Positions 27,370 through 61,305 of a DNA stretch of 61,305 nt are shown here, piece after piece. Below the pieces are notes generated by a model, which was not told the DNA's origin, did not search any database, and was given only the letters and a program-made list of their open reading frames with translations. How positions within the stretch are numbered: position 1 is the first letter of the stretch; the number at the start of each line of letters is the position of its first letter. A program made the translations under genes and the position numbers. Origin of the DNA: Trichoplax sp. H2 (taxonomy: Eukaryota); the NCBI GenBank assembly GCA_003344405.1, contig NOWV01000112.1, positions 186,001-247,305 of the forward strand, written 5' to 3'.

Positions 27370-27472
27370 TACAGCACGTGATCTCTATACGATTCTGTAT
27401 GACGTATTATGGTGATACGATACCCTCGATCGCCTCACTACTCATAGTCTGTTGGGCGCATGCGTGATGGCT
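27370..27472 (+). promoter_or_regulatory. Probable BRF1 proximal promoter
   Basis: Locally CpG-richer, with CACGTG (E-box), TGACGT (CRE-like) and GCGCATGCG (NRF1-like, 27456-27464), about 140-230 bp upstream of the ATG. Motif resemblance only. Confidence 0.4.
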
Positions 27473-27602
27473 TGTGGAGGTGGAAAAATGTTTAGTAGAC
27501 TGTCTATTTGTTTTCCATGAGAGGCTTTATTATTATTGTTGGATGGTAAAGGAAGAAGGAAATCATCTTGAAAGTAAAGGAGATATCTTCAAAGTAATCA
27601 TC

Positions 27603-30600
27603 ATGCCGAGTTCTTGCCCTAAATGCGGTGGTACTGATATTGACTACGATCAAGCACGAGGAGATGCAGCTTGTACGTCGTGTGGTGCTGTTTTAGAGGA
27701 TAGTATTATCGTCTCGGAAATCAGCTTTAAGGAGAATGCTATGGGAGGTGCTAGTGTCATTGGACAGTATGTAGCTCCCGATGGTAAGTGCAATCAGTCA
27801 TAGTCATGACATGATTAGACGATCAATCGTTATTGATATCGTTAATCCCGACCATCAATTAGCTAGTTTACTTTAATATGTAATAACAACGTATAGAAAT
27901 GCAATAGCCAAAGTGATTAGTTATTGACTTGCACTTTTGATAAGGACAACGTATTGTTTCGTTGCAAAACAATCATGGAAACACGTTATATCGAAATGGT
28001 AGAATTGTCTTTAAATACTATTTTAAAGCTATTCCAATGCATGATTGTAATAGGATGGATGAACTCCTCTATACTTGTAGCTGTCTATTATAGATAATAT
28101 AATAATGACCACTGTAGAAACAGGAATGATCAGGAGATACTATACTTTTATTCTCAACATGAGACTTAGCGCATTATAAGCTTTGCTTATGGCAGTACAA
28201 AATATACAGCGTAATGTCATTTCTGTGACAAGGTATGACAGGATGAATCAACCTTTTTGCTACATTTGTTGCTATTTTTACCCATAACTTGTATTTCTTA
28301 TATTGTGATAGGTAAATCTCATGGATATGTTGACGGATTTCATGGTTTTAGCAAAGAATCGCGGGAAATAACGCTACAAAATGGTAAAACTATGTTTTTA
28401 TTACACTTGAAAATAGCATGTAAACACTGTATGCCATTACTGCGCCGTACGCAGTCCTAATAAGTGGCCGATAAGTTTATGCTGTAAAGTATTGCAAATA
28501 TTTTTCGACGTTATTCTAGAGATGTAGCTAAGTGTAACGAATAGCCAGAATAATCATACTACCTTTGCGTACTGCTGTTTATAAATTAATGAATAGAGAT
28601 AATGCTATCATTGAACTATAGGAAAGAAGAGATTGACTCAATTAGGGCAACAGCTAAAACTGAATCAGAATTGTATTGATATGGGTTATCGATTTTTTAA
28701 AATGGCTGTCAATAAGAGATTAACTAGGGGTAGAAAGACCTCTCATGTTGTTGCTGCTTGCTTATACATTGTATGTCGTGTAGAAGGTACTCCACGTATC
28801 CTTTGCCATGTTATCTTCCAGTACGATTTTCCTGAACGGAATCGATAATTATATTTTATTATATAATCTCTAGTGATTGATCTAATGAATTATCATCGTA
28901 ATCTGTTGCTTATCAATTCGTGTTGTAAACTAGCAATATAACACTGAAACTGCGTTATTGCTTTCGAGTGTTATCTCCTTAACAGTATTATTAAAATGCA
29001 TTTAGACATGCTGCTCGATTTCAGCGATATCTTACAGGTAAAGTCGATACACAAATTACAAGGACTATTTGTTAGATAACTTAGTTAATGATTGCATATG
29101 TTATAAAGTATTAAAAATATTATAAAACTAGGACCTGTCTCTGGGATTATTTTAATAATGATCTTTATTATACGCTATTTGAACCTTGGTATCATTATTG
29201 GAATTAGGTTAATGTGTACGTGCTGGGTAAAACTTACTTAAGGATCACCGCAGCCTTATCCATCAATATTCCAGCTATTGGTAAGATTGCATATTTTAGC
29301 ATAAACAAATACTCTAAATTATGTCAGTGCAATAAGATGCGAGTAGGGTCAATTAGCATGATGGTTATTTATGTTGTTTTCTTTACCTTGATTATTAAGC
29401 AATTGCTGTTACTGTTGAATACGCGTATATCTATTTGCTATTCTCATATATTAGAAATATCACATTAGTTCATATTATTATACGACGTATGAAAGCTCAT
29501 GACTAATAGTTTCGATTTTGTGACCACAGACCCTTGTTTATACATTCATCGTTTTGCAAACAAACTGGAATTTGGCGATAAAACACACGATGTATGTATG
29601 ATGGCGTTAAGATTAGTTGCTAGAATGAAACGTGATTGGATGCACCATGGTAGACGCCCATCGGGCTTATGCGGAGCTGGTAAGATATTTATAAACATAG
29701 TTTCTTTTTTACCTGCGAATGATTACTGATTCAAGATATCTTTGAATTGCGATTCCGCAAACATATGTATACTGGACAACATTAAGTGGATACAGTAGTA
29801 ACTTTACGTCTTTGGTATAATAGAATGGATGATGTTATAATAGTTGCTTTGAAAATATTGAACTACGTATATTAGCTACTTGGACTTATATTGTATCGTC
29901 AGGACTCTAAAATGATCAACTTTATTATACTTATCAGGTCTTTTAGTTTCTGCACGACTTCATGGTTATAATCGTACGAAAAAGCAGATAATCCGTGTAG
30001 TTCGAGTTTGTGAAGCTACACTTAGAAAAAGGTGATAGCCTTCTTCCCAATCATGGGCCTGTAAATTGTTCGCATATAAAGTGAAAACACTATATTGAAA
30101 GTTTGCGTATCATTTGTGCAGAGATTAGTAACTTCTGTATTCGAATTTTTCTGTAGCTTTCGTGTTTAGAAGTAACTATGCGATTATATTAAGTACTTCG
30201 TACACTTGCATTACAGACTTGGCGAGTTCGAAGAAACCCCATCGGCAAAGCTTACTATAGATGAATTTCAAAAGATAGATTTAGAAGAAGAGCAAGATCC
30301 TCCATCATTTACGCAAAGTAGAAAGCGTGCTAAACAGTTTCAGGTATAGCTTTCTATTATTGCACCAAACACCTTGTTATGGCTAGAGCGTGGCTTAGGA
30401 AGTTAAGTGTTGTAATAACAGTGCTACTTTGTTGTTTTTTCTAGGAAGATCCAGTGATATCAACGGATTTAGCAGGTACTCCATGATATTATTTACTATT
30501 TGATTATGCTAGAAATTTGAAGATATAAAATATGCGAATATAAATATGAACGTTAATTGTTTACAGGGGAAGTTCAAGCTATTCAAGAAGAGCTTGAGAA

Positions 30601-32068
30601 GGTGCTTGAAAAGAAGCGATTATTAGAAGGTTTGCAAATTTATATATTTGATATCATCGAATAACTATACTAATATTATCAAACCGATTGCCTTACTTTA
30701 TTTGTAAAGATATAGAACAGTCCAACCAAGAAGAAGAAAAGAGGGATAATATACCTGTCTTAAATTCTACTAACAGTTATTGTACAAGGCTATCAGGCCC
30801 ATTGCCAACCGTTGAAACAGTATGTGGCAGGACCCCATCTCTTGCTACACAAGAATTTAACGGTATGATACATCAAGATAATTTTTCTGTTGTCAAAAGA
30901 ATCTATAAATATGTTATTGCATATTTATAACACTGAAGTAAAATTAAATAGTATTTATTTCTAGATAAAGGCGTTGAGGAAGATCTTTCATATGTTGATG
31001 ATGATGAGATTAATGAGGTAAAATAAAAGTTGTATTAAAACATATTGGTCAAAACTTCCGATACACATTGTATTGTTAATTTAATATAATATTCTTATAA
31101 AATTCTTGTCATCAAAGTATTTGTTAGACGAAAAAGAAGTTGAAATTAAAACTAAAGTTTGGACTGAAGAAAATAAAGATTACCTAACTGCGCAATTAGG
31201 TTTGAATGCTTGCATGGCTTTATCACCTTAGGTAGCATTATGAAACTTAACTATATTGCTATTATTTGTGCTAACCTTTATAACGTAGAAAAAGCAAGTC
31301 GAATTGATAAAGATTCTAATGATAAACCTGAATCCAAAAAGGTAATTTTAAAATACTCATCAATAACGTTAAGATGACTTATTGATTGCTCGTATTTGTA
31401 AATCAAGTTATGGAATCTAGTTTTTGACCTATTACTTATTATAAATGTGAAAATTTTTGTCCTTCAGAGAAAGAGAAAATATAAAAGAAATCAACTTATT
31501 TCACCAGCAAATTCGGTTGGAGAAGCAATTGAGAAAATGCTCGCCGAGAAAAAGATATCTAGTAAAATCAATTATGAAGTATTGAGGGACTTAACGGAAA
31601 CTAACGCTTGCACCACTAGCAGCGTGGAAAAGAATTCGAACTCGGCTAACACTTCGAAAGATACAGTCAACCAGAGGTATAGTAAAAGAAATAAAATTGA
31701 TTGTTGCCTGACATTGTTTTTCTTATTTTCTATTTGTTTGTCTTCAGATCTACCTCTACTCCCGCATCATCTAGTAAGAAAATTTTAAAGGTAAGATCGT
31801 ACTTAGTGAGATTGCTAATTGATGAAGACATTTCCTGTTAATTAATCGTAGAAATGGTGAGTTTCCTGAGGAGGTCTTCTTACGCATTTATATCTAGACA
31901 ATACCTGAAGAAGTTTTGTCGAGCGATGTCACTGTAGAAACTGGACCGATTGCCTATGAAACTGGACCAATTGAATATGAAAGTGTACCTACAAATGATA
32001 ATGAAGCAACATTAACAAATGAAATTCTATATGAGTCTAACTCTGATGATTCAGATTACAGTAGTTAA
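27603..32068 (+). CDS. BRF1: TFIIIB 90-kDa subunit BRF1, 17 exons, about 586 aa
   Basis: Zn ribbon CPKC...CTSCG, cyclin folds ([62 protein letters not shown]), [11 protein letters not shown] and [12 protein letters not shown]. Exons: 27603-27783, 28312-28383, 28622-28795, 29006-29037, 29208-29280, 29530-29679, 29938-30031, 30217-30343, 30445-30475, 30567-30629, 30710-30862, 30965-31017, 31118-31199, 31289-31341, 31468-31676, 31748-31790, 31898-32068. All introns GT-AG; total 1761 nt, in frame. Confidence 0.96.
28796..29005 (+). other. U12-type (minor spliceosome) GT-AG intron, BRF1 intron 3
   Basis: 5' site GTATCCTTT; branch site TCCTTAAC at 28976-28983; no polypyrimidine tract; AG at 29004-29005. 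Splicing restores the conserved GTPH-MLLD. Confidence 0.93.
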
Positions 32069-35000: not shown

Positions 35001-35237
35001 CTAGCAGAGCAAGTGGAGTCATTTGTACTCATTTTCTACCAAAAATCTACTGTAGCAGGATTCTTGAATGGGATGAATGGAAGGCTATTAAGTTAACCAT
35101 GACGCAACTTTTCATCTTGTCGATCAATGAATCTTATTGTTTACTAAATTGATTAGCATCAGGATTTAATCCAAAGGAGGTGATAACATAATGAATGATC
35201 ATCAATTAGAGCGTAATTAAAAATGTCGCTTTGATTT

Positions 35238-35540
35238 AAAAGTGCAGACTACTTTAGTGATGAATACAAGATGTTCATCATGGTAAAATACCATGCAGCA
35301 AAGGACATGATGATCATGAACGATGGCCATCCAAGGAATCATCGCGTTAACGAAGCAACCATGACTATTTGGGACCGTATCGGCTCACTTACTTGACAAC
35401 GTTGTATTACTATATACTGCGCCATGGACTACCAACGAAGTAGTAGTCCATGACTGGACTTGAACATTATTCGACGAGACTCCCATTACTTGCCATAGTC
35501 ATAGGGTGCTCCGTGGGGAAACCGGTTCCGCCGGATTTGT
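35238..35540 (-). ncRNA. Candidate structured non-coding RNA, family not recognised
   Basis: Long closing stem 35350-35368/35495-35514, inner stem 35370-35374/35481-35485, and a perfect 10-bp hairpin 35423-35432/35443-35452. Some mismatches become G-U pairs on the minus strand. B-box-like GTTCAAGTCC (minus, 35456-35465) and T4 runs downstream. Confidence 0.4.
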
Positions 35541-37974: not shown

Positions 37975-38160
37975 TCTAGCCAATAAGATTGTAGCTCAAG
38001 GTGGCTCTCGCCAGCTCTGATTGGTCTCTCATCGCCCTATTGTACGGCAGATGGTCGCTTGTGGTGAGTACACACTTCACTTTACCGCTACCGCTTGACC
38101 ATTATTAGAAAGGAAAAACGAATCCATACAACAACAAACGTCGCTGGCTCCTGGCACGAG
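37975..38160 (+). promoter_or_regulatory. Probable promoter and non-coding first exon of the SLC3 gene
   Basis: Two opposed CCAAT boxes (agCCAATa at about 37980, gATTGGt at about 38020) in GC-richer DNA; donor GAG|GTAATG at 38160/38161; candidate acceptor AG at 38738-38739, 42 nt before the ATG. Confidence 0.5.
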
Positions 38161-38713
38161 GTAATGGAATTTTCTTCGCCACTGTAAATCTTTGAATTTC
38201 AAGCCATTTTTTTCCTTCTTCTTATAGCGTGGATAAAGTCTTACTTCATTCTATATACAGTCATGATGAATAAGTGTTTAATGGTTATTTTATGTTGGTA
38301 GTGAGAGAGAGCAAAGGGTTGTTTTTTTATTGCAGATTGCTTATGTTGATACGCTACAGTAACTAAATCATCCTCGCCATTTTGAGTCCTCTTATTGTCT
38401 TTGACTGTACTGTATTTTTTTTCACTGTCGCTACTATTAGATTCACACGGTGTTTTGGGCGCGGAATTGTTTTTGTGGATTGTTATCACGGGTTTTTGTA
38501 AGTCCTTTGCATAGAATAGTGCTTTAAAAGCCAACTGGATACAGACCATGACAGGGTAGAGTAGAAAGTAGATAAATTGACGTTATCCTTTTTTTTCCCC
38601 CCTTGCTATTGGTATTATAGGAGAAGGATCTTCTTTCTTTCAACTGCCCTTTTAACTCAACGTTGATTGTAGACAAGTGAGTCAAGACCGGAAAAGTGTA
38701 AACTCCTTTTTTC

Positions 38714-38781: not shown

Positions 38782-40563
38782 ATGGGAACTGAAGAAGATC
38801 ACAGAAATGGCGAATCCAATAACGTTGACAACCCAAGTGAAAAGGAAAAGATTGATTTTTATACGCCTGGGTTAGTTTTAACACGTAAAATTTTCTTATG
38901 GGCGTACGCATTGGGTACTATTGGTGTCTTGATTGCCGCCTTTGCCTTAATTGCTACCATGCCTAAACGATGCCCTAAAGAACGTACTTGGTATCAACAA
39001 AATGTCATGTACAAAGTTTATGTACCATCGTATAAAGATAGTGATGGCGACGGAATTGGCGACTTAAATGGCATTTTATCCAAGTTAGACTACATTGCTA
39101 GTTTAAATGTCAAAACACTCTGGTTAAGTTCATTGTATGAGGCACCGACTACTGGGATCAAACCCAACGGCATGGAATCGAATTTTACCGCTGTGGATTC
39201 TAAATTAGGCACAACTGCCGATTTATCTGCTTTAATTCGCGCTGTCCACAAGAAAAAAATGAAAATTATGCTCGACTTTTTACCTACCGCTACCAGCAAC
39301 AACAACAGTTGGTTTATTGAAAGTCGAAGCTCTCTTGATAATGCCAAAAGTAACTGGTATGTTTGGGAAAATCCATACAATGGTGGCCCACCACGAGTCA
39401 ATTGGAGTTCAACAGAGAATAACAATATCCATTGGCAATATGATAATCTCCGCCAACAATATTACATGTACTATGATATCAAGGAACGACCAGAGTTAAA
39501 TTTCAAGAGTAGTTCGTTGCGTGCTGAAATCAAAAGGATTTTCAGTTATTATCTTAAATTAGGTATTGATGCTTTCAATATCCATGGTATGGAATGGCAT
39601 TTCGGTAGTGGTTCAACTGTCAACGGCAATGTCAGACCATCATTTAGTGTCTTATCTGAATGGAATACTCAAGTTGCTGGCTATACTGACACCAAGTATA
39701 CCTTCTTGGTTGGTCAAGTGCCCAACGATGTCAATGCTATAACCGTTAGCCAATCGTGTAAATTCAATGCTCTCTACTTGTTAACCTATAGTCTACTACC
39801 CAACAATGGCCCATTAACTGGTACTGGTATTGCCAATGTTGTCTCCAATTGGATTGCTACTGTTAGCATGTCTTCACCCAATCGTTATCCACATTGGATG
39901 TTGCGTAACCAAGCTAAAACCCGAGTTGCTGCAAGTTTCGGTCGCCAATATATTGATGCTTTGAACTTTATTATGATGACTTTACCCGGTGTGCCCAGCA
40001 GTTATTACGGCGAAGAAATTGGTATGATTGATAGCACTGTTTCTTATGCACAAACTCGTGACCCATTAGCTCTACTCTACGGCCCTACCAACTATGCCAC
40101 TGTATCACAAGATAAAACAAGAGGACCAATGGCATGGAATTCAACCACCAATGCCGACTTTACTAATGGTACATCAACGTGGTTACCACTTGCAAGTGAT
40201 TACTCAACTGTTAATGTCGCTAGTCAAGTTGGCTCGGTCGATTCTAACCTAGAACGTTATAAAAATATCACAGCCTTTCGAGCTAGCGAAGATTTACTCA
40301 AAACGGGCAACTACAGTCGTGTTATGGCCACCAATGAAGTTTTCGCTTTCTTCCGTTACTCCAGTAGTAAAAGCTACGTTGTCATGACTGTTGCCAATGT
40401 TGGTGCAACTTCACAAAATGTTGACATCAAACAGTATTATGGTACATCTGCTACAACCGCTACTGTCAAAGCGGCTACTAGGTCTAGTGTTCATGGCACT
40501 ACCGTTCAATTGAACAACATACAGCTAGCCAGTGGTGAAGCCGTAGTAGTACAAATTGGTTAG
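38782..40563 (+). CDS. SLC3A: SLC3 heavy chain of heteromeric amino-acid transporters (rBAT/4F2hc family, GH13-like ectodomain), 593 aa, intronless CDS
   Basis: True start is probably the ATG at 38782 (the ORF-track start is a GTG). Short cytosolic N-terminus, single TM (IFLWAYALGTIGVLIAAFALIATMP), juxtamembrane Cys (PKRCP), then WYQQNVMYKVYVPSYKDSDGDGIGDLNGILSKLDYI, TLPGVPSSYYGEEIGM and RGPMAWN. Confidence 0.92.
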   Translation: MGTEEDHRNGESNNVDNPSEKEKIDFYTPGLVLTRKIFLWAYALGTIGVLIAAFALIATMPKRCPKERTWYQQNVMYKVYVPSYKDSDGDGIGDLNGILSKLDYIASLNVKTLWLSSLYEAPTTGIKPNGMESNFTAVDSKLGTTADLSALIRAVHKKKMKIMLDFLPTATSNNNSWFIESRSSLDNAKSNWYVWENPYNGGPPRVNWSSTENNNIHWQYDNLRQQYYMYYDIKERPELNFKSSSLRAEIKRIFSYYLKLGIDAFNIHGMEWHFGSGSTVNGNVRPSFSVLSEWNTQVAGYTDTKYTFLVGQVPNDVNAITVSQSCKFNALYLLTYSLLPNNGPLTGTGIANVVSNWIATVSMSSPNRYPHWMLRNQAKTRVAASFGRQYIDALNFIMMTLPGVPSSYYGEEIGMIDSTVSYAQTRDPLALLYGPTNYATVSQDKTRGPMAWNSTTNADFTNGTSTWLPLASDYSTVNVASQVGSVDSNLERYKNITAFRASEDLLKTGNYSRVMATNEVFAFFRYSSSKSYVVMTVANVGATSQNVDIKQYYGTSATTATVKAATRSSVHGTTVQLNNIQLASGEAVVVQIG

Positions 40564-43500
40564 TAAGTTGGGGTAGAAGTATTGCAACGTATCGCACGGA
40601 TACAATATTACGAAATCATAGCTGTCATCGGATCACTGGACAACATGAGTTATATGACCCAAAAAAATTAAGTAGTATAGTGAATGTCCTTTCATTGTTC
40701 TAGTTCTATCTATTTAATAAGTTATATGTAGTAATGTCTTGTGCATAGTAGATAGATTAAAATCTTATTCTGAATAAAAAAATATTTGTAGTTAATCACT
40801 GTTATTAGTAAAGGGTTAGCTTTTAACGTTTTGATTCATAAATCATTTCTATGGAATCGCCACTGCCATATAGGAATGACCCACACTGAGTGGATTTAGA
40901 TAGTTGGAGTTAACACCTTGAGAAAGATAAATCAATGCAGTTGTAAATAACAGCTATGAGCAGCTGTAAATCATATTGATAGTATTATGATAACGGTAAT
41001 AAGTCTTTCAATTGAGTACATCTCAGGAAGTTGGTACTGTCTCCTGTTGTATAGCAAAACAATTGTCATGTGGATAGTGCTTGGAAGTAATATTGAAATG
41101 CTTTATTTACTATTAAAATTGTAAGATGGTGTTGTTGTATTCTGGTTGATGCAATTACCTTGTTACCATTAATCCATCTTATACCATTTGAATGATAGCT
41201 TCTCGATGTGTTAACTTTAGTATTGCAAACACTTTATTTTCTCTTGTTACTGCTTAACTCTTAAAATTTAGCAATTATTACCAGCTATTTATAATCACAA
41301 TGGTTGTTATTTAACGGATTTTAGTATTAATTTGCTTATTGTTTTGTAATGTATGCGATTTCTCGCCAGTCAATAGATATATGATTTTCAATCTCATTCC
41401 TGCTAGAAAGTTGAATGAAAGCAGTGATGTTACTAAATAATATTATGCAGAAATTTTGCATTCTGGCTGAGCTGCGCACCCAAATATTAATATCTTATAT
41501 TGTACGTTGCCATAATATGTACTTAGTCTAATCTACGTACAATTTTAATTCATTTGGCAAGATAATAATATTATTGAAATTTTTACTTAACTGACGAGTA
41601 CTGTACGCCTAGATATTTTAAAATACAGGTTTCGATTGTTATAGTATTTAGTGCATTAAAGACTATTCTCGATCGATGTAAGGCTGATGGTAGTTTCAAT
41701 ATGGAGTGAATTAGTTTGTTCTTCAAGCATTTCTGTTTGAATTTTATAGTGAGCATCACAGTATTATAGATTAGAGAGGATAGGACCTACGGTACCATTT
41801 TATTTGCACTTGCGGTATAGCATAAGGAAATTTTGTTGATACTTCAATTGAACGTCTTTCTTGGAGATAAGGACAAAAGTTGATAATGGATTTTCATGCA
41901 GTGGTAGTATATATGAAAAAATTATACGTGCTACAACTAGATATAGGTAAATTCTTCAGGGGAATAATTCGTAAGATTTCATCCGGCAGTGAGCACGGTG
42001 GACGGTATAGTATACAGTACAGTAATCTTAGGACAGAAGATCCCGTTCTATTCCCAGGCCAAGCTGTATCCATTGCTATTTATTTTTATTTTTTAATCAA
42101 TAAATCCATTTCCTTTAGTTTACACACGATCATCATCAATTTACTGTACATGGCTTGATCGATTCTTATCTCAACGCAAATATACTACTGTACTATGTTA
42201 TCTTATATCGATAAATTCATTTCCTTCTGATAATTAATCGATTACCATCATTTCTAACGACCGCCATTATAATTATCAGTTGTTGGGGGTATCCTTTTCA
42301 ATCTAATTAACGTTTACAATCTGACAAAATAGAAGAAGGGGTAAGCACTATTAGAGTCTAATAAGACGAAATTTAATCTTTTCATTGTTGTTATAGGATG
42401 GAAAACGACTTTGTTATAGGGAACAGTTACACTAACAATAGAACAGCATATGTCGCATGCAAAAAAATCAATCTGTTAGATAAGTAATCTTTGAACTCTG
42501 GTTTCTACATTCTTAACACATAGATGATATCACGGATATCCACTATGACAATCGGATTCGATATATTCCTGATGATGACAATAAAATGATGCTACCATAG
42601 ATTGTAATTGCCTCGTCAATATCATAATATTAGTACAGTTGTTTATTACATAACATCGAGGAAATAGATTATCCCATAATCTATTCATCAAAAAGTAATG
42701 CTTCGTCCAAGAAATGACGGCTTGTTGGTACAAGAGTAGTTAATGGCAGCTGGCGAATTCTGTCACGTAATTTGGACAGTCAATATCCTTGTTTTTGAAT
42801 ATACTCCTACTTGATAATTCTAATTCCTAGCATAAATATAGCTTGGATTCATTGTATCATGAATAATAAATTTTCTAGTAGTTGTTCTACCAACAAATAG
42901 AAGAAATTCATAGTTGGTACTGCTTATGTAATCAAGGGCCATTCAATCGACCTCACGTGATGCTGAATTTAGTTTACCGCAGAGTAAATAAAGCCCAGCG
43001 TAATTGCTTCGTCATCATACTATAGTGCTAAGGTAAAGATATGCTCGGATGAGAATAACGTGAAAGTAGTCGATTTATTTATAGAAGAATTAATTTAACT
43101 ATGAATAGCAGCAGCCTGGCGTTACAAAATCTATAAAAGAAGTAACAGCTCTTCAAGACGAACAATCAATTCTTGATTCATCCATTCAATATTGTGATAC
43201 TCAGATACGCAATAATTTCAATGAACGATGCATAGCGTTCGGTACGTTGTGCTATAACTGTGCCACAACCAAGTAATTTCTAGATTACTTATATAGACAG
43301 AGATATGATAGTTATCTTCTCTTTTTAAAGATAATGACATCGTAGTGTTACCAAACTTAATTAATACAGCGTATAGAATAGCAAGTATAAATAGAATGTT
43401 CACAGAAGTTCAAGGTAGAATCATAATGTTGTTAATAATAAAAGTAGATACCTAGCCGGATTACAGGATCATTTTAAATGTACTGGTGAAGTATCATTGA

Positions 43501-43864
43501 TTACATTTGAAATAGCATAACGAAAATTCTGAATTTTGAACGCATTTTAATTCCACTAATGAATTATATGGCCGAAGATACGTAAGAGATTGATTATTTG
43601 ACATATTGCTACAGTAAAGATTCTCTGAATACCTCATTCACTTACTTGATTTGTCCATGAGACACTTCAATAGCCTAAAAATATCTAAGCAACTGGGTAG
43701 TATCGGCACAAAGAGAAATATTACTAATCATGCAGAACTCTTTATACTATAAGATTAATGTCATTGTTTGACAGAAACAGATTCGTCTTTTATTGCGGCT
43801 GTAATTTATCAATTCTGTATAGATAGAATATGTATTAAAATGGTAATAGGATCTCTCGTTGATT

Positions 43865-46800
43865 CTAGTTAAAAGTGTTCAAGAGTTCGTCAGGCAGATC
43901 TAGGGCTTTATGGAGGAATGCAATCTCAAAAGCAGCCTGCAGTATAAAGCAAATTTATTATGTTACCAACTGATACAATATTCAGTGAAGCAACGGAGCT
44001 ATTAATAAATTCGTACGCTTTCATGAAGCAAAGCATCAATAAAGCTAATAAAGTTGACTATTATAGAAGCAGTGTGTAAATATAGTCCAGAAAAATAATT
44101 GAATCTAGTCAATCAATTACGGAACATTAAATAGTATCTTTGTGTCCGCTAACCCCTAGGTTACCAATATCGTTCGTTTAACATAACTACAGCCGTTCCC
44201 AATTGGAATTGCATCTACGACTAGTATTACATAGATACTACTGTAGTTGGTAGAAGTTTCACAAATTCAGGCACATTAGGCATTACCTCTTTTAATCCTT
44301 CATCGCCAGCTGTACCATAATGACCGGATGACAGATTAGTTTTTAAGATGTGATAAATTTTATTATTCGTTGTGGCACCTTCATGTTGTGATTGATAGTC
44401 TCGTTGAGCTGCTCTCAATTTTGCCATAAAGCGAACTGGAGACCAATAAGGTACTCGATTGTCATTATAAGATGCAGTTAATAGCAAAGAAGGATAAAGC
44501 TAATAGTTGGCACAAAAAAATGAGACCAATACAAAAAAGTAACATGCATTCAGCAACAACAATTGCATACGTGTATTTAAATAACAAAATTAAACTATGT
44601 AGCAGAAACCTACATTGCGCTGAATATTGGTGTAAGGGCAGTAAGAACAAATATAGTCAAATACATGGCTGGAATTTAAATCACCCCATTCTTCATACTC
44701 TTCGACAGTCAACGGCAAGGACTGATCAAGCATCGTTCCCAAGATATCTACATGTGGTACCTAAAATGACAAGATCATAAATAGACGATAAACCTTGTAT
44801 TTAATTTCCAGTATGGTACATACTACAGGCCAATGCAATCGGCTACTCTAAGCTTACCTTCATAATTGCTGCAGCTATTTTATTCGGGTGATTGTTACAA
44901 AGATGAGCAACAATCAAACCTCCGGCACTAGTACCTTTGCAAGATGTCAATGTTGGCTTAGTGTAGCCTCGATCTTGTACCTCATTAATGCAAGCTAAGA
45001 AGTCATAGAATGAATTCATTTTATTAAGTTGACGACCTTGATAATACCAATGCCTTCCAAATTCACCACCACCCCTGTAAAATTAAAATGAAACATGTAA
45101 TTGCTGCATTTAATTTAATGGTAAAATATAGCAATTACAAAATAGAGTTATGCACATCTTCGGTTCAGTTTTTGGTAGCATTTATCAACTGTATCCTTGG
45201 TAATGTCGATTAATGCCTTACTGTACATATAAAGTTTAATCACCTGACATGACAGAAGGCAAGAACCCATCCAGCTTTCAACAAACACATATTTTGAACT
45301 GAAAACTGTCGGTTTAATTCCATTCCATAAGCACCATAAACTATAGCTAGCAAAGGAGTGCTGCTATTCAGAACGATATCTTTGCGATGACATAACGATA
45401 TTGGTATTTTACATCCATCCTGTAAATGATTTTGTAGTAATTGACTTTGAAATTCACACTTAAAATAATAATATCAAATAATAGACCTATATCATTTCAC
45501 GTAGCATCATAATATCTAGGTTAGTGTTACTTTGTCTAACCTTGCTAGTGGCATATGAAATATAGAATGAGTATTGATCACTATCCAAGCCAATCGTTGA
45601 TGGCGTCAAGTTGTTTAATGCCATAGTTCTCATATCCAACTCATAAAATGTATCAGCAATTAGAGGGGACGAATATGAAAACCTTACAGTATCTGCGGAG
45701 AAAGTAAAGTTAGAAGCAGAGGCAATGGTACCAATAGGAAGTTTAAAGGTTTGGCATTGGAGTGGTGAATGTAGGTTAACTATTGTTATCTGTGGTTCTA
45801 AGTTTTCTCTTTGGTAGAGAACACAATAATCTGCAAAGATATCCATATCATCTAAGAGAGTGTCAGTACTATCACTAGCAGAGTCCTTATCCATAGCTTG
45901 CAGTTCTTTCCAATTATCACGACCAGGATTTTGATCAGGTGCCATCATAACCTGTCCAAAAAGTATTACAAGCTTTCATTATGTACACCACACTCGTATC
46001 AAGATTCTGTGCCGATACATGACTGAGAATTAGTATAGCGATAATTTGGTTCTAAATAGTCTTGGTTGATACACATTCTATAACGTTATTAACTAGCATT
46101 TATTAGCGTAAAGCAGCTTGAATAGATTCAAAGTTTCATCATCCAAAACATACGATAAGCTGCTCAAGTGCTCATCCATTCCTGGCTGAAGAATAATAAT
46201 TATATAATTTATGTCTAACGCAAAAGCTGTTTACTTAAAATGTAGCCGTGTGTAGATTAAATATTCAATATAATCAATTACTATCAAAATCTGTTCTGTA
46301 AAGTTGCAATTCATTGGGCAATGACACACTGTAACTGATTCTTAATAAGCCATTAAAAGCATGACATGGAAAATGGCGTCGGTATGCAAAAGATAGTCGC
46401 ACGCATTTTCATTTACCTTATATTTTCCTGAAGATTTGTCATTAGTTAATATATAAAAATGATTGTTGCTATGATCGACATAACATTCACAGTCAAGTTC
46501 CCTTTCTTTAATAAGAACCGGTTTAGATTTCAATTTTTCTGTATCTAAAGCCCAAACCTGTTAGGGTAACAAATACATAGAAACTAGTCACGAAATGCTG
46601 ATAATTAAAGCAGAAAAATTGAATACGCACGTACCTCAGATGATGATTTTGAATTCAAGTTAATAGTAAGAAAGCGATGATTCTTTGTACATACAATATG
46701 TAGGAAATACTTTTCGTCATCTTCTTGGAAGAGTAGTCGATCCGTTAGTCTAGAATCGAACGCTCTTAACCATACTTGGTAGGGTCGACGTCTATAATTT

Positions 46801-47950
46801 TGTTTAGTATAGATAATACTATCTTCATTCGATGCAAATTCAACAGCGAACGCATCCCTGATTACGTCTATCACATTCGGTTGATTTCCACTTAGATCTA
46901 TTATATGTGCTTCATAATTTTCTTTTCCGTTAGTGTCAAAAGTGTAAGCAACTAGCTAGGTAAAATATTAGAAATAAGAAAGCAATTGCATTCTCTTTAA
47001 TATATACTACATGCGATTCATACAATCCATCAGTTCATTAACACGCAAATCTTAAACACCTCTAGGAGCAACTACGAGGTACAGTACAAGAAAAACTAAA
47101 CAGCAGCTAATGACTTTACCATAATATTTTTACGCTATAAAACTGATGATATGTGCAACACATACCCGGTGAGATGGAGAAACTTTCAGCTGACCGACAC
47201 AACAATGTTGATGTCTTTTCGACAAATCATTTAGATCTAAAATGACTTCTTCATTATTATCGACAAGATTGCTATCCAGCTTACGGCGACAATAAATAGG
47301 TAAAGATGCAGCCCTCTCTTCTTTCATATAATACTCATATTTTTCCAATATCTTTATAAAAGAAATATACGATAATCTTTAACATATAATATGTAATGAT
47401 AAGTCGATGAACTTAGTTATCTGCATTCTAATTATAGGCATACTGGAGATATTGTAATAAAATCGAATTGATTAGGACAATCATGGCAGAGGCTGACGGA
47501 AGCGTTTTCGCATTTATTATACTATTTGCAACCATTTGTTTTTAAATAGCTTACAAATACTGTAGGTACGAAGATTACCTCAGGAGGAACAGTTAGCTGA
47601 GCTTCTATGTCACTCATTGTTCGTACTAGCTTAGATTGGATTGATTTTGTATTTGTCATGACCTTCTTAGCATATGAATTTTCTTGCTGAAGATATTTCA
47701 TGACTGCTGCATTACCTTGATCTTTCAACCAGTGATAGGGATCTGAAATTGTTTTGCCATGCACACTAATAGTCCAAGGTTTGATAGCTGCTTTCGGAGT
47801 TGAAATATAATCTTTACGGTTGAAAGGCCAATTAAATTTTAATCTTCTTGACAGTAATTGGTACGGCAATGAGAACTTGTTGTGTATATTGCCTATCCAT
47901 TCGCTTGATATAAGCTTGGACATAGATCCTTTCAATATGACCGTCGCCAT
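43865..47950 (-). CDS. PREPL: Prolyl endopeptidase-like / oligopeptidase B-like S9A serine hydrolase, 10 exons, about 751 aa
   Basis: Exons (minus): 47950-47579, 47351-47166, 46955-46635, 46557-46417, 45951-45541, 45419-45244, 45074-44858, 44760-44614, 44499-44287, 43936-43865; total 2256 nt, in frame. PLLAIVYGAYGM and GWVLAFCHVRGGGEFG resemble vertebrate PREPL. Catalytic triad: GTSAGG (Ser), NDNRV (Asp), SGHYG (His). Confidence 0.92.
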
Positions 47951-50027
47951 TCCAGGTAAGACTAGCTGGTTATCACTCCAAAACGATATGCAGTATATCC
48001 ATAAATACAGTGCCGTGATTAAAATTAGAAATCATGCTATCGTTTAAAAGTCCACCGTGTACCATACATGAACACCATTGACATAATAGCCATTTATTAG
48101 AGGTTAGCGTTAAATATCGTTGCAGCTCCAACAGCTCGTTGTTGCAAAGCTTCCACCTATCAATACAGTAATAAGTTAGTAGTCGCCGATATTAAAAATG
48201 GTCAGGGGATTGTAGATTATTGATGTAAGCGATAGCAGCTACTCTTCACCCACTGCTCTATTAAAAATGCTTTCTTCTAGCTTCGATCGATTATACTATC
48301 ATCAATGCAATCATTGAGCAGTCTTAAAGTAGCAAGATGCTGGCTTGCAGTTTTCTGGCATTGCAGATACTGCTGGAATAAGATCGATTGGTTTCTGGCA
48401 GGTCCTTTTGCGCTTCGTGTCCAAGAGTCCATCCGTACTGCGTGCTATGCACAGTACCTGCGCAGTTGCACTCCCTTCTTGTAACACATATCGACATAGG
48501 CAATACAGTAGCCTATCCACTTTAGCTTATTTTATACACATACCCAATATAGTATGAAATCTCATACTAATCACTATTTTGTGACTCAAACGGTACTTTT
48601 AGCCTATATACTGCATTCTAAAGCAACAGGTGTGCAAGTGTAACAGGTTGTGCACTGTGCAGGAAATGTTGCTGATAGTTCAAACTTAATTGACTATGGC
48701 CTTCGAATGAAGACTCTCCTAGCCTTGTAGATTTAATACTTTATACTATTATTGGCAAGTATTGATGTAATTGAAGTTACGGATGCCCATTTAGTGTCCT
48801 ATAATAATAGTAATTAATATTTGCTAATTTCACCTATTGTACATTGAGTGTACAAATATAGATCTATTTTAGAGCTGGACTATATTTCCATGGTAACAAC
48901 ATTTCCTGTACATCATTCCACTATAGTTGCCATTTAGACCTCGAAATGCTAATTACTGTTAAAGTCAAGTTATGCATGCACATTAGTTACTTAATGCTGT
49001 GATTACTATATGCCTTATTAGCCATTAAACAACACTATCATTATAATTATAATGTAAGCTCAAACAAGATATTGCGAAACTAATTACACCTACAAGCTTT
49101 ATTACAAATGGCACTAATAAAATCTTAAATCTTAGTACCACCTAGTGCAAAGTAATATGAACAAACTTTAGTGCTTTCATTCAACCGATTAAACCCGTTT
49201 AGTAACAATCATTATGTGTACGTACATTTATTATAATCGCAAAAACGGATGAGATTATGACTGGGCTTACATTTCATATCGTCAAAGGGTATATCTGCAC
49301 GATCGTTCCACAGATTTGAAATTGAAATAAATTCACTCTAAAATAGACTCAATGTTTAGAAACATTAAAGTCTAAAAATAGCATGCTGATAGTTAATTTG
49401 GAAGTAGCTCGCAACTTCGGTTGCATGTATAATGTACACTATATATTAAATACTATTATATCGTGGAGGAATAAAAGTAACCAATTTTTTCTATGCATAC
49501 ACGGTAAATTATAGGTATAGGGGCAAGTGGTCCAACAGCTATAACTTGGTTGAGGAGGTAAATATTAATAAGCCTTTAGCCTGTATAGTTATGGACATCG
49601 TCTAATAAATGTTGATTACAATTCAAATAGTTAACGAACAAAGATTTATAAACAGAATATATATCATATACATTACAAATCGTATTCATTGACATAGTAA
49701 TTTCGTTCAATTTTATTTTCTCATAAACAGCCAAAAATTAAAGAGGCAGTATCATCTAGAACTTTAGTTCATCATATTAAGCACTTAGTAAATGCAAGTT
49801 TATATTCTCATCAGTATGAAAATAAATCAGTACGAAAATGATTGGATAAATAACAGACTTGCGTAGTCCACCTTCGCAATATTATTAAATATTGATTATA
49901 GATATTATTTACGAAATAATTTAGAGTCTGAGCTGCCTTGGAAATCATTAGTATTCAATAAGGAATAGCGTAGTAGACGATAATATTGTGAGGATTTCAA
50001 CTTGAAATATGCTTTCGGTGATGCAGT

Positions 50028-51727
50028 TTAAACTTCGTTTTCTTCAAAAAACTCAGCATCTATACCTAATTTGGTATGGCAATCATAAAACTATTTTCAG
50101 AAACAGTTTATCAGATAGAAATCTATCTTTTGTCTTATAGTATGCAATTTTAACAAAGCCTGATTGAGATGTATCATATGCTCATACCGTGAGTATCACC
50201 TAAAATAACAGGATTGACATCGTCAATAGAGTGCCCTCTCGGAAAATTATCTGGCCTAGAAGTAGTAAGAGAGCCAATAGTGATTGGAAGCCGCATTATC
50301 AAATTCTTCGCTTTTGGAACAAGCACAGTAACCTATATTGAACGAAATTAAGAACAGTTTCAGTTTAAAACATCAACTATGACAGCACAAGTACCGTATA
50401 TCCCATATTTCTCCAAAATTGAAAATAATTAAAATAAATCAGAACCTGAACACTGTACTCCGCTTTAATAATGCGTCTGTAACTGATTGCTGGTGGTATA
50501 TGCGGAATGTCGAACGATTCATCATTTAAGTTAAAAGTCTTTCCTCGATCGACTGGCTGATCAGATTCAAGTGCCACAATAGTATCGTAATATTTATAAA
50601 AATTGCCTATATGCATTGCCAAGTTTATAAAATGAATTAGTAAAATCCTTCAAAAACTATTACTTACAGTTTATCAACCCATTGAGATTGAGACTACCTT
50701 CTACACTAGCTAAAACTCGACGAACTAGTGCCACTTGAATCCCTTTTAGAACTACATTACTTGAGTTCTCACACTCAATATTTAATAACATTGTTTCGCC
50801 AGGAAGGTAACCAGAACGATCTGCTTTTATACTTAGTTTAACGGTTCCAAATTGGCATAAAAAACGATTTAAAGGCTGTTCGAGGCGCAATTGTGATGGC
50901 TGTTCCTATATTAGGATAAAATAAGACAATCACCCTTGTTAAATACTATCTATCTCAAAATTGTCAAAAATTTCTAGCTTTTTATAATTTAAACTGTCAA
51001 TATACTGTGAAATAATTTGGCTTCAGCCAGTCCCTATTCTCGTGAAATAGTTTACTGTTTTAACTCAGTTATTCCTAGTGCACCATAAATCATAAAGAGG
51101 GGATTATACTTACTCGTAATAAGGGGCGAGGTACATCCACTGTTTGAATATATGTAAATCCTGTTTCACAAGTGTAATTCTTAGATGGAGGCCTCTCAAA
51201 TTGAGCAACAATTCCATAAAATATGATACAGTAAGGTCTACTATCAAACGATGACGGCATGTCATCATCGGTATTTAATTGATTTGTAAACTTAAATTCA
51301 TGATAGCCAGCAGGCAATGAATGTCTGCTATCAAACACTTGATCAGATGCTATAATATATAGAGGGATAAGAATCAACGCAGATACACAGTTAGAAAGTT
51401 TCCATCAAAATTATTACTAGGGTTTATCTGTTATAGATAGTAAGTGCATAATTCATGGTATTCATACAGATTCGGCATGTTTTTAACAATAATTTCCTTA
51501 CCATCACCCCAAATAGTTTGCTTTTCATCAAGGAAGTAGTGATCGACATTACAACCATGTTTACTTCTAGAAGCAGCCGAAGCCCGTCCACGAAGGCGAA
51601 TACTCAAACCCAATGCTGGCATTGCAACTTGTATTTGGATTTTGATGGTGCCATTTATAATATCGCCTTTATAATAATTAGCTTTAGGATTTTCTAGCTG
51701 GATTTCGAAAAGAGTCAATTTTCCCAT
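50028..51727 (-). CDS. Alpha-arrestin (ARRDC/TXNIP family), about 337 aa; last exon uncertain
   Basis: MGKLTLFEIQL...YYKGDIINGTIKI, LPAGYHEFKF...MPSSFD...IFYGIVA, ADRSGYLPGE...ENSSN, IIKAEYSVQV...LPITIGS. Exons: 51727-51502, 51349-51114, 50905-50698, 50606-50446, 50332-50188, 50065-50028. Confidence 0.88.
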
Positions 51728-54700
51728 GTTAATTACTTCTATCTTCTAAGCTGGAACCAATAGGGTAAAAAGAAAGGATTGATTAGAGCTTTAAACTTTT
51801 GAAATCTCAGTTTAGGAAACACGTTCTAGTTCAATGGAAATACGAATAGTTTTTCAAATGGAGAGTACAGCAGCAGTTAGTAAAATTAAAGATAGCATTA
51901 GTAAATAATTTCATCTCGTAACTTGTCGTTGTCTTAATCTGATGTTAGAAAAGCAGATTTAAAAAATACAAATGGCTAATTAAAATTTATTATCTTACTA
52001 TAGTGTTAATATTAGTACGGCAATAATTTTAGCTTAAGCCAATTATATTCGATCTGATTGTGGTTTGTCACGCCTAATTAGTATATTGTATAATGTCTAT
52101 TTACCCATTCTGTAAACATAGCGAAAGTCTTGTTAAAGCATACGTTACATGTGTTGAGTAATGCACTTGGTTATGTATTCTCCTTCTTTTTGTAGCATGA
52201 GCACCAGAAAAACGTACACTGATGCCCAGAAGTATCTAATCAATGGATGCTGAAACAACATAAGCAGTATATTTACCAAGAAATATCCCCAAAAAACTTT
52301 ACCAGGAACTGTAAAAGACAAGGGTTCATTTTAAGTAATGAGTAAAACAAAAATCGGTCACAAGATGTATACTGATAGCTTCTGCTAGACATGAAGTGAA
52401 TATTATTTGGCAATCCTTTAACCTGAAGTGTCTTATTTGCTTAGTATGGTATCAAATCGCTTTAAAAATTTATGGTACATGTGTATATATACAGCTCATT
52501 ATAGCTAAGTAAATGCACATAGAAATCAAACTAGCTTGAATTTTATACTACGAGCTACCCTAGCATATCATTTAAAAGCTATTTTAAATGTATTACTTAA
52601 TACAGTACATTAAATTTGCTTAATTCGATGAACTGTATTTAGTAGCTTTCGGAAGACGATATAAGCTTAAAAAGTGGATATCTATTGTAGTCGATTCGAA
52701 TATATAAGATAATTGCCATATTAGATTGACGACGCTATAATTTATTTCAATTGCAGCTTCATCATCACCAGCTGAATCATTACTGATCACAAAGCAAGGC
52801 AGAAAATCTAAAAACTAACCTGCTCTAATAACTGTATATGCTTATTCCAGCGTTATATCTTATGATAGTGTTATAAGAAGATTACCTAATCAGCTTGCTG
52901 TTAAAGTTTTAATCGTGCAATATGAAATTATACAAATCTTGACTGGCATATCCTATATTAATTAATAATGAATTAGTTTAGATAATTTGAGACGTTGGAT
53001 CCATCATGATGTCATTGCTACTTTTTTCTCTAATTGCTCACCAGCACAAAAACATAATGAATTTAAGGATACGTAGGAATAGGATGTATATCATCATCTA
53101 TTTGTTATGCTTATCTTCTAAGCTTAGAATATTTTATATCATATTCAGCTCAAGACAGATCTTTCTGCTATCTTCTAATTCAGTAAAAGTGATTTAAGTT
53201 TTTCGATTTCTCGTTAGCTGTCAACGATTTGAGCGTGACATAATTGTTGAATCATCAGACAATATGTTAATAAAAGAACTGAATTAAATTCAAAATTGCT
53301 CCTCCCTAGGTTCTTCCTGAAAGGTCTTCAGAAACATTACTTTACATTGTAATATCATAAAAGCTACTTTAGGACTAGTGTTACAGTCATCAACTAATCT
53401 ATGTGCCAGAATAGATATAATAAATAATTCATTAATAATTGATGTGAGCATGTTAAAATGTCAATCGGTTTTTATAAATTGATGCTCATGTATGAACAAT
53501 CAAACTGGATTATTAATTCTCTTGTTCGTTGCTATTTTACGTCTGCTTTAATGCGAGTTCTCGTAGACCTCTAGTAGAGCTAACATCTTGATAGCGCAGT
53601 AACATTTAGTAATCTTAAAATGAAATCATCGAAACTGAGTAGAATTCAATTAAGTTGTGGTAATATAAACTTTCATATGAGGCAAAAGAAATAGTCGTTA
53701 AATAGATAAATCTGCTATATTTTTTCAAATTTAATTGCTGCTACTATTTTTGAATTGATGTTGTAGAGACGCGCATATCAGTGTCAAAATGTTAATAAAA
53801 AGAAAACAAGACTCGTAAATTAGCGAAGTAACAGCCATTATTTTGTTTAAATCAGTAATATGTCAGTACAGCGTAGTATATAAGCTTTGCAGGCACATTT
53901 GATATACTTTGTATATGCAAACTTAATTTTTTTATCATTATAGGTACACTATGATAGTAAATTAATTAATGATCGTAGTTCAAGGGTTCAAAATCTCCTT
54001 AAATTACAAAAAGAAGTTACTAACACATGTACTTCGAAAGAGTCGAAATCATCATATCCCTATAAGCTGTAAGGTTATATCTTGACAGCAAGACATTTTA
54101 TACGTCAAGACCTTGATACATTAACAATGTGTTTTTAAAAAAATGTGAGGCAATAACGATCAATGCGTTAGCGTCGATATCTAAAAGCTTCGCTAAATGG
54201 CAACAGCTGCATACAATGTCTTTAGAAAAGAGTTATCCTCAACTGTTTCATACAACAACTAATCTCAAAACCTAAAATCCACTCGATAATTTTTTCTGGC
54301 TACAGTAACTCTACAGTTAGTTGATATTACATACTTATAATTGATGAAGTAAATGATTTACTGGACTGTTTTTTATCATCCTTCTAAAATTCTTATTTTA
54401 GTTAGGGTTTATACTTTATCAATCGTTCGATATAACTATGCTGTGCATAAATCGAGCCATAGATACATTCCAAAAATATTGTCAAGAATGCGTGAAAACT
54501 TCCAATATTAATTGTCAACATACGTATAATTCAAGAGCAAAAGATGTTTTACCTGGTGTCAGGAGGGTGGTTTCTATTAAATTTTATGCCAAATACGATT
54601 TTTGTTTTAAGAAAATAAAACTGTTTTCAAGCATTTCTTAGCTTTTATTATATCAATTTACCGTTCTGTCTTCAATTTAATTGCTGTTGCTGTATCCAGT

Positions 54701-57700: not shown

Positions 57701-58112
57701 AAAGTTAAAGTTATAGGAAATGCACCCAAATCCTCACTTCATTATTGCTTTCTTCTTGGCGAATAGAAAGAAAATTGGATAGAAAAATCAGCTATATGAA
57801 TGAGCTGACCGTTGTGAAACTTGTAATAATAGATAAATTTAATATTAACATAGTCAAAATTTTATTTTTTGCAATGTTACATCAATATCGTACGAAAAGA
57901 AATTAGTTTTGTCTGTTAATAAATTGTTACGATTAATTTATTTATTATAAAGATTGGACGGATTTATGAACACTAGAATATAGAAAATAGATTCCACTGC
58001 CGTGAACATTGATTGATATTAAGAAATCTCGAAAAATTCCTTATTTAGTCTTATCTAGCGTTTATAACAAATCACTAGCCGCTAGGTTGTGTTACACTTC
58101 TAGCCTTATTTT

Positions 58113-60971: not shown

Positions 60972-61305
60972 CTAAAAAGTTCTTCTATATTAAAACACAG
61001 TTGATAGTATTAGTAAATTAGATCCATTTGATTCTCCCAGCTTATAATTAGGTCTAAATAGTATCATTGATAGTCATTATCTTCAACAATTTCACCTCAT
61101 CACAACCGTACATCAAACTGGTATGCTAGTTTATAAAGCAAACTGTTACTAATACTACCTGTTAACAAACGCTAATGTCAGTATGAAAATAAATTTACAT
61201 ACAATGAGCCATTATAATAAATCATTGGAAGTGTACATTAAAAGCTATTGCATACTGTATCATAAAATATTTATTTCTTGATAATGACAAAGTTTTACAT
61301 TTCTC

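What the first reader, a model, noticed from the sequence alone, without database searches (positions are those of the whole stretch)
38782..47950. SLC3 heavy chain and PREPL lie tail-to-tail, as human SLC3A1-PREPL do
Seen: the SLC3 gene (+) and PREPL (-) converge, with stop codons 3.3 kb apart and no recognisable gene between them. Established: human SLC3A1 and PREPL are convergent neighbours on 2p21 with abutting or overlapping 3' ends, co-deleted in hypotonia-cystinuria syndrome. Inference: if this is a placozoan-grade animal, the pair and its orientation predate bilaterians. That would suggest a constraint such as shared regulation or 3'-end interplay, and would mark this locus as the ancestral SLC3 position.
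Basis: partly seen in the sequence, partly recalled or inferred. Interest (0 to 1): 0.8.

Follow-up and report, generated by a model that had tools for sequence, protein, structure and literature searches.

The report
Ancient SLC3–PREPL gene pair in Trichoplax
In a very simple animal, the gene for an amino-acid-transporter helper subunit and the PREPL gene face each other tail to tail, as their human relatives do, so this neighbourhood is probably older than bilaterian animals, but nothing yet shows that it is kept for a reason.

Summary
Observation confirmed. The window is placozoan (Trichoplax). An SLC3-like gene (+, 38782-40563) and a 10-exon PREPL gene (-, 47950-43865) converge, with 3,301 bases and no recognised gene between the stops. 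PREPL orthology is good: it falls in the animal/holozoan clade, and a profile's best solved match is human PREPL. The partner looks like a heavy chain: type II helix, neck cysteine, all three glucosidase catalytic residues lost. Its tree position is unresolved, so it is an SLC3 family member, not a proven SLC3A1 orthologue. Published gene numbers put the pair side by side in 4 of 4 placozoans. In Hoilungia a THADA copy (vertebrate 2p21 block) lies three genes away and two further SLC3-named genes 7-9 genes away. Most likely this is old linkage kept passively. Against a constraint: amphioxus PREPL appears to be followed by a dynein gene, PREPL joins no expression module, and CAMKMT and PPM1B were not found beside the pair. 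A 3' overlap as in human could not be shown. No cnidarian, sponge or spiralian gene order was testable. Hundreds of such pairs are known. The scan had not noted this pair before.

The parts
38498..38620 (+). GT-AG intron in the 5' UTR of the SLC3-like gene
   Evidence: Joint in RNA contigs of 2 of 4 runs laid
38782..40563 (+). SLC3-like heavy chain CDS, 593 aa, no intron in the CDS; GH13 ectodomain with 7 N-glycosylation sequons
   Evidence: Pfam Alpha-amylase E 9e-74; best 4 PDB sequences are rBAT; sequons
38896..38973 (+). Single transmembrane helix (about residues 39-57) and neck Cys64
   Evidence: Hydropathy; Cys aligns with the rBAT and hemichordate neck Cys; N-terminal 83 aa give 12 of 12 PDB hits to SLC3A2/SLC3A1 at E 0.26-0.37
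39583..39915 (+). Dead GH13 catalytic site: His268 for the nucleophile Asp, Gln312 for the acid/base Glu, Ala378 for the stabiliser Asp; shortened beta4-alpha4 loop
   Evidence: Alignment A2; positions
40564..42122 (+). SLC3 3' UTR, at least to 42122 in one run; AATAAA at 42099
   Evidence: RNA contigs reach 41707 (a low-depth piece 41948), 41876 and 42122 in three runs; signal scan. Strand inferred from continuity with the CDS; contigs are unstranded
40564..43864 (.). Gap between the stop codons, 3,301 b, no gene recognised
43126..43864 (-). PREPL 3' UTR, at least to 43126 in one run
   Evidence: Spliced contigs continuous with the last exon reach 43126, 43463 and 43648
43865..47950 (-). PREPL CDS, 751 aa, exons 47950-47579, 47351-47166, 46955-46635, 46557-46417, 45951-45541, 45419-45244, 45074-44858, 44760-44614, 44499-44287, 43936-43865; triad Ser585, Asp670, His717 intact
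   Evidence: Pfam Peptidase_S9_N and Peptidase_S9; tree and profile
27468..31788 (+). BRF1 (TFIIB-related), the recognised gene upstream of SLC3; ends approximate
   Evidence: Pfam TFIIB, Zn ribbon, BRF1; numbered next to SLC3 in three placozoans
50177..51745 (-). Arrestin-domain gene, the recognised gene upstream of PREPL, where vertebrates have CAMKMT; ends approximate
   Evidence: Pfam Arrestin_N/C; numbered next to PREPL in 4 of 4 placozoans

Best explanation
An inherited gene pair kept mainly by slow rearrangement. In the common ancestor of placozoans and vertebrates, a membrane-anchored GH13 (SLC3-family) gene lay tail to tail with PREPL. Placozoans and jawed vertebrates kept this; amphioxus seems to have lost it. 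The two proteins do unrelated jobs. The + gene most likely encodes the placozoan heavy chain: a catalytically dead glucosidase fold that links through Cys64 to a LAT light chain and brings it to the cell surface. It would be a pro-orthologue of both SLC3A1 and SLC3A2. The - gene is a serine hydrolase with an intact triad, probably mitochondrial like human long PREPL. Shown: structure, orientation, PREPL clade, dead triad, neck Cys, presence of LAT genes. Taken from published gene numbers: adjacency across placozoans. Inferred: common descent of the adjacency, heavy-chain function, mitochondrial location, passive retention.
For: PREPL: holozoan clade SH 96 with sponge, coral, amphioxus, hemichordate and echinoderm proteins, apart from the OpdB-like clade (names). 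An IQ-TREE quick tree gives animals 80, holozoans 89, eukaryotic clade 100. Profile A1: human PREPL 571.6 bits, OpdB 539.1, human PREP 242.2. Two S9A loci were found in the genome; the other is PREP-like. SLC3: the rBAT match starts inside the membrane helix, residue 33, whereas the one paralogue tested matches only from residue 75, after its helix. A small SLC3 N-terminal profile scores this gene 12.2 bits and its orthologue 14.3, against 3.4-6.3 for 5 other type II GH13. Two LAT genes carry the loop Cys. Consecutive numbers in 4 of 4 placozoans. THADA three genes from PREPL in Hoilungia and Cladtertia; THADA is in the vertebrate block with SLC3A1. Placozoan gene order is about 74% collinear between genera, and the arrestin neighbour is as stable as SLC3 (PMC6067683). 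At least 378 conserved pairs date to the eumetazoan ancestor (PMC3514665).
Against: The GH13 tree does not place the gene: branch length 2.3. AU tests reject neither grouping with the two placozoan paralogues (p 0.172) nor with rBAT plus hemichordate SLC3 (p 0.167). The paralogue tested is closer to rBAT overall (435 vs 267 bits). Pfam SLC3A2_N reaches only 15.6 bits, cut-off 27. As a single sequence the peptidase scores OpdB slightly above human PREPL (316 vs 304 bits; the PREPL match covers only residues 147-740). No vertebrate PREPL or 4F2hc was in any tree. No intermediate lineage shows the pair, and amphioxus points to loss. Placozoans have two THADA-like genes, and the copy on C475 is at least as human-like as the one on C739 (20 vs 16 of 32 identical residues by my count). 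Gene numbers give no orientation.
Confidence: 0.55

Rival explanations
1. Hidden paralogy. The ancestor had an active, rBAT-like glucosidase near PREPL. The dead copy next to placozoan PREPL is a placozoan duplicate, and the triad-intact copies a few genes away are the closer kin of SLC3A1. The linkage is old at family level only.
For: rBAT keeps the D/E/D triad (PMC8537225), and so do both C173 genes. One scores 435 bits against rBAT. A placozoan-only clade is not rejected. Two SLC3A1-named genes lie 7 and 9 numbers from this gene in Hoilungia.
Against: Only the PREPL neighbour has the SLC3-like helix and short neck; the paralogues have about 19 extra residues before their Cys. Rooted on bacteria, the best tree puts it nearer the bilaterian group, support 83/79.
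Confidence: 0.18
2. The pair is held by selection, through interlocked 3' ends (shared terminator or antisense overlap) or SLC3 regulatory elements inside PREPL.
For: Human last exons overlap (PMC2257944). Orientation is the same, although only 15-25% of non-head-to-head conserved pairs keep orientation in all species (PMC3514665). Poly(A)-like hexamers occur on both strands within 42079-42104.
Against: A fused B. lanceolatum model joins PREPL (1-673) to a dynein heavy chain starting at residue 719, so the next gene 3' on that strand is a dynein. PREPL is in no placozoan expression module, while this SLC3 gene is listed in two species. In Jurkat cells PREPL is high and SLC3A1 undetectable. PREPL introns here are only 77-465 b. 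Such hexamers are common in this AT-rich gap: 13 on the - strand, 10 on +.
Confidence: 0.15
3. Coincidence within an old linkage group. Both genes stayed on the same ancestral chromosome segment and became neighbours twice by shuffling.
For: Chance per pair rises to about 0.001-0.004 in a pool of 400 genes, and thousands of human pairs could have been picked. The vertebrate flanks are absent: PP2C_C matches C257, and 0 of 5 Methyltransf_16 matches are on C136. No invertebrate row carries SLC3A1 or PREPL in the readable part of the block table of PMC8851819 (file cut, three-gene minimum).
Against: Same orientation, a THADA copy nearby and the other family members nearby. Inherited pairs number in the hundreds, against a few to tens expected by chance (my estimate).
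Confidence: 0.12

Closest known systems
Human and gnathostome SLC3A1-PREPL locus (2p21; coelacanth XP_005999616/617)
   Same: SLC3-family gene and PREPL adjacent and convergent; a THADA gene in the wider neighbourhood.
   Different: Stops 3.3 kb apart and no overlap shown; flanks are BRF1 and an arrestin-domain gene, not PPM1B and CAMKMT; the SLC3 CDS has no intron (human has 10 exons) and has lost the triad that rBAT keeps.
Conserved ancestral microsyntenic pairs (Irimia et al. 2012, PMC3514665)
   Same: Two unrelated genes adjacent in a placozoan and in vertebrates.
   Different: Tail-to-tail rather than the enriched head-to-head class; no long-intron bystander or developmental regulator; one clear lineage pair only. 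Their supplementary list could not be read, so the pair may already be in it.
SLC3 heavy chains rBAT (SLC3A1) and 4F2hc (SLC3A2)
   Same: Type II helix, neck Cys, glycosylated GH13 ectodomain.
   Different: A mosaic: helix and dead triad recall 4F2hc; the ectodomain is closest to rBAT and keeps the beta3-alpha3 loop; it lacks rBAT's C-terminal extension.
PREPL (S9A; PDB 7OBM, 8RFB) and oligopeptidase B
   Same: Propeller plus hydrolase domains, Ser-Asp-His triad; profile best hit is human PREPL.
   Different: Keeps the OpdB-like N-terminal segment (residues about 50-125) that the human short form lacks.

Membership tests
PREPL orthologues | Groups with animal PREPL, apart from OpdB and PREP | tested here: met
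   (invertebrate proteins named 'prolyl endopeptidase-like' or 'protease 2-like'; 146 of 151 rows used); for human PREPL. No vertebrate sequence in the trees.
PREPL orthologues | Ser-Asp-His triad (human S559, D645, H690; PMC8634043) | tested here: met
   S585, D670, H717, invariant in 9 of 9 aligned sequences
PREPL orthologues | (Thio)esterase activity and mitochondrial import of the long form | not testable with these tools
   Only an N-terminal extension of about 48 residues before the OpdB match is seen; no targeting predictor was run
SLC3 heavy chains | Type II membrane protein with GH13 ectodomain | tested here: met
SLC3 heavy chains | Neck cysteine just after the helix | tested here: met
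   Cys64, aligned with rBAT and hemichordate Cys, kept in the placozoan orthologue P0001
SLC3 heavy chains | SLC3-type helix region (Pfam SLC3A2_N) | tested here: inconclusive
   15.6 bits, E 0.013, cut-off 27; absent for both paralogues; fish rBAT also falls under the cut-off (17.5 bits in 1 of 3, none in 2); weak PDB hits, 12 of 12 SLC3
SLC3 heavy chains | Disulfide-linked heterodimer with an SLC7 LAT | not tested
   Two LAT genes with the loop Cys exist (motif recalled). Shares a module with a LAT in T. adhaerens but not in H2. No complex was folded: no whole light chain was at hand.
SLC3A1 (rBAT) one-to-one orthologue | Groups with rBAT in a GH13 tree | tested here: inconclusive
SLC3A1 (rBAT) one-to-one orthologue | Retained D/E/D residues, as in human rBAT (not kept in all putative orthologues, PMC8537225) | tested here: not met
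   H268, Q312, A378
Conserved ancestral microsyntenic pair | Orthologous genes adjacent in distant phyla | tested here: met
   Placozoa (window) and gnathostomes; orthology at family level for SLC3
Conserved ancestral microsyntenic pair | Presence in several independent lineages | tested here: inconclusive
   Amphioxus suggests loss; metagenome scan found no animal contig; other animal genomes are not held
Convergent overlapping (sense-antisense) pair | 3' UTRs overlap | tested here: inconclusive
   Only unstranded contigs; none listed joins the two genes

The most novel reading that the evidence does not exclude
This neighbourhood is where the amino-acid-transporter heavy chain arose. An active membrane-anchored glucosidase duplicated locally, one copy became the LAT chaperone, and that copy has been held tail to tail with PREPL since before bilaterians by a shared, bidirectional 3'-end element (candidate 42079-42104). 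The human overlap would be the extended form of that element.
Probability: 0.12. Interest if true: 0.65.

Novelty: new member of a known kind. Interest (0 to 1): 0.36.

Why it matters
It dates the adjacency behind hypotonia-cystinuria co-deletions to before bilaterians and marks 2p21, rather than the SLC3A2 locus, as the one that kept the old neighbour. The placozoan neighbourhood holds a dead heavy chain and two intact membrane glucosidases, a compact system for asking how a glucosidase became a transporter chaperone. As synteny alone it is one of several hundred such pairs.

Tried and rejected
RNA cover of the gap: in the 3 runs with splice joints no listed contig covers 42123-43125 and two bins have zero depth, while the joint-free, DNA-like run X9 covers them. 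The three runs stop at different places, PREPL depth is low, contigs are unstranded and 71 pieces were not shown, so this proves nothing about overlap. Depth was not used to rank the genes. Hidden gene, RNA or repeat in the gap: none found. Retrocopy idea for the intronless SLC3: rejected, because it has a 5' UTR intron and both paralogues are also single long frames. Homologue search with the whole peptidase returned almost only bacterial OpdB. Joining C136 to C173 or C739 by sequence overlap: no match. CAMKMT and PPM1B next to the pair: not found; CAMKMT itself was not located. Atlas search: S9 family only. Literature: 0 papers for PREPL+SLC3A1+synteny, PREPL+oligopeptidase B+invertebrate, SLC3A1+SLC3A2+ohnolog. 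Of 58 papers with PREPL+SLC3A1, 40 were listed and none concerns invertebrate linkage by title or abstract start. Searches gave nothing on placozoan SLC3. Supplement of PMC3514665 unreadable; PMC11108405 not held; PMC8809688 supplements hold none of the gene names. Careful trees of the peptidase did not finish. No structure or complex was predicted.

Full report
Observation. The + strand carries one 593-aa frame from ATG 38782 to TAG 40563 with a Pfam alpha-amylase domain. The - strand carries an S9A peptidase in ten exons, 47950 to 43865. Its nine introns are GT-AG and the spliced frame equals the stored 751-aa protein P0384. RNA contigs show all nine introns and a 5' UTR intron of the + gene, which fixes both strands. 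The stops are 3,301 bases apart. The gap holds no Pfam match (0 of 23 frames tested), no Rfam match and no second copy in the genome. The proteins are 97% and 99% identical to T. adhaerens TRIADDRAFT_51166 and 62068, and the identical peptidase record is labelled Trichoplax sp. H2. The window ends at the end of contig C136.

The peptidase is PREPL. As a single query it scores bacterial OpdB slightly higher than human PREPL (316 vs 304 bits), but the PREPL match spans only residues 147-740. The best hits among 50%-identity representatives are proteins from Porites, Branchiostoma, Creolimax, Ptychodera, Corticium and Patiria; 4 of the top 10 clusters carry 'prolyl endopeptidase-like' or 'Prolyl endopeptidase' names, and one hit, P0224, falls in the OpdB-like clade. 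FastTree on 146 of 151 rows (five over 1,100 aa left out) puts it in a holozoan clade, SH 96. An IQ-TREE quick tree of 20 rows gives animals 80 and holozoans 89. A profile of nine animal-clade sequences scores human PREPL 571.6 bits, OpdB 539.1 and human PREP 242.2. The triad is intact. The only other S9A locus found, on C277, has the PREP-type GGSNGG motif (motif recalled).

The partner is an SLC3-like pseudo-enzyme, but its exact orthology is open. Its best solved matches are rBAT, aligned from inside the helix. It has one helix, Cys64 in the neck, and His, Gln and Ala at the three catalytic positions; the placozoan orthologue P0001 (84% identical) keeps the Cys and the dead site. The first 83 residues retrieve only SLC3A2 and SLC3A1 from the PDB, 12 of 12, but at E 0.26-0.37, and Pfam SLC3A2_N stays under its cut-off. 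The genome has two more type II GH13 genes on C173 with intact triads and a longer neck. The one tested is closer to rBAT overall, but only from residue 75. In trees the window gene has a branch of 2.0-2.3 and no supported sister. AU tests reject neither a placozoan-only clade (p 0.172) nor a heavy-chain clade (p 0.167). Two LAT genes on C341 carry the loop cysteine. I read the gene as the placozoan heavy chain and a pro-orthologue of SLC3A1 and SLC3A2, in line with the 'primitive heavy subunit' of PMC8537225 (passages).

Gene order elsewhere could be read only through identifiers. T. adhaerens UniProt entries are B3SCR2 and B3SCR3, on one 478,585-base contig. In the orthology table of PMC10580291 (supplement rows, file cut) SLC3, PREPL and the arrestin gene are consecutive in H2 (008756-8), Hoilungia (g03091-89) and Cladtertia (009006-8) (species codes Hhon and HoiH23, genus names recalled). 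So the copy is not a recent insertion in one strain. The arrestin and BRF1 neighbours are just as stable, which fits the 74% collinearity between placozoan genera (PMC6067683, passages). In Hoilungia, THADA is g03087, a FERM gene g03085, and two more SLC3A1-named genes are g03084 and g03082. I infer that these match the C173 pair, since C173 ends in a FERM gene and a retinol dehydrogenase is numbered beside both sets. Cladtertia THADA is 009010. THADA belongs to the vertebrate block with PPM1B, SLC3A1, PREPL and CAMKMT in turtle and coelacanth (PMC8851819 supplement, 30 of 38 hits seen, file cut). The caveat is that this genome has two THADA-like genes, and the one I take to be the linked copy is not the more human-like. 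From recall, human BRF1, FRMD6, ZFPL1, RDH11-14 and SLC3A2 lie on the 2p/11q/14q/19q paralogon, so the region may be an unmixed piece of one ancestral linkage group. That favours a stable position and also raises the chance of accidental adjacency.

Against a constraint. A B. lanceolatum model fuses PREPL to a dynein heavy chain that starts at residue 719, so the next gene 3' on that strand is a dynein; an antisense gene between them is not excluded. PPM1-type and CAMKMT-type domains were not found on C136. In the placozoan single-cell modules PREPL has no row. The SLC3 gene shares the peptidergic-alpha module with a LAT in T. adhaerens but not in H2. In human the last exons overlap, yet PREPL is high and SLC3A1 undetectable in Jurkat cells (PMC2257944, passages). 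RNA contigs here extend the SLC3 3' UTR to at least 42122, 18 bases past an AATAAA, and the PREPL 3' UTR to at least 43126. Whether minor isoforms overlap cannot be told from contigs.

Mechanism and odds. Most likely the pair is inherited and survives in two slowly rearranging lineages without a functional tie (0.55). Alternatives are family-level linkage with hidden paralogy (0.18), linkage held by selection (0.15) and coincidence inside a linkage group (0.12). Together, old linkage of some kind is about 0.88.

Comparison and novelty. Irimia et al. (PMC3514665, passages) count at least 378 conserved pairs at the eumetazoan and 593 at the bilaterian origin, mostly head to head. This is a further member, tail to tail. 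My searches found no paper reporting it outside vertebrates, but their supplementary list could not be read and may hold it. PMC8634043 (passages) gave the human triad and localisation; PMC8809688 (supplement search only) gave nothing. The scan's own notes hold no record of this pair and one analogous pair in this genome. The more interesting by-product is that all three placozoan type II GH13 genes found, one dead and two intact, seem to lie within about ten genes of PREPL.

Noticed in passing
G000:C173:171795-173726 (L013:5796-7727) and C173:188613-190430 (L015:2613-4430): Two single-frame, membrane-anchored GH13 genes with intact catalytic triads and a Cys after a longer neck; probable surface alpha-glucosidases, each assigned to an expression module in all four placozoans (inferred from names).
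   Followed up: partly
G000:C739 (L151) and G000:C475:111500-122000 (L152, L153): Two THADA-like genes in one genome; the C475 copy lies next to a WASH1-like gene (name recalled from the sequence).
   Followed up: partly
G000:C341:337298-348693 (L022, L023): Tandem pair of LAT-type SLC7 genes with the loop cysteine, the likely light chains.
   Followed up: partly
P0003, P0048 (unnamed Logan proteins): Type II GH13 proteins with intact triads from unnamed sources; P0003 has a Cys directly after the helix, like an active form of a heavy chain.
   Followed up: partly
window 53000-61010 (-): Multi-exon gene with a Death domain (E 4e-7) and a weak CARD match, running to the contig end.
   Followed up: no
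window 34500-38250: GC about 0.39-0.42 against 0.31 around it, no Pfam or Rfam match, with splice-donor-like sites near 38070 and 38160; may be regulatory or non-coding exons upstream of SLC3.
   Followed up: no
window 48300-48560: Short GC-richer stretch upstream of PREPL with open frames of 55-74 aa on both strands and no Pfam match; one RNA contig runs from PREPL exon 1 to at least 48300.
   Followed up: no
window 46951-46956: Tandem acceptor sites 4 bases apart at PREPL intron 2; one contig joint is reported at the out-of-frame site.
   Followed up: no
window 14182-15141 (-): Intronless rhodopsin-family GPCR frame, 320 aa.
   Followed up: no
P0379 (CAH1261978.1): B. lanceolatum 'DNAH9' model is a probable mis-fusion of PREPL and a dynein heavy chain.
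   Followed up: yes
L016:2400-5200 and L145:9260-10000: Tandem repeats of about 175 b upstream of the window and about 233 b at the end of C173, the latter a likely cause of the assembly break.
   Followed up: no
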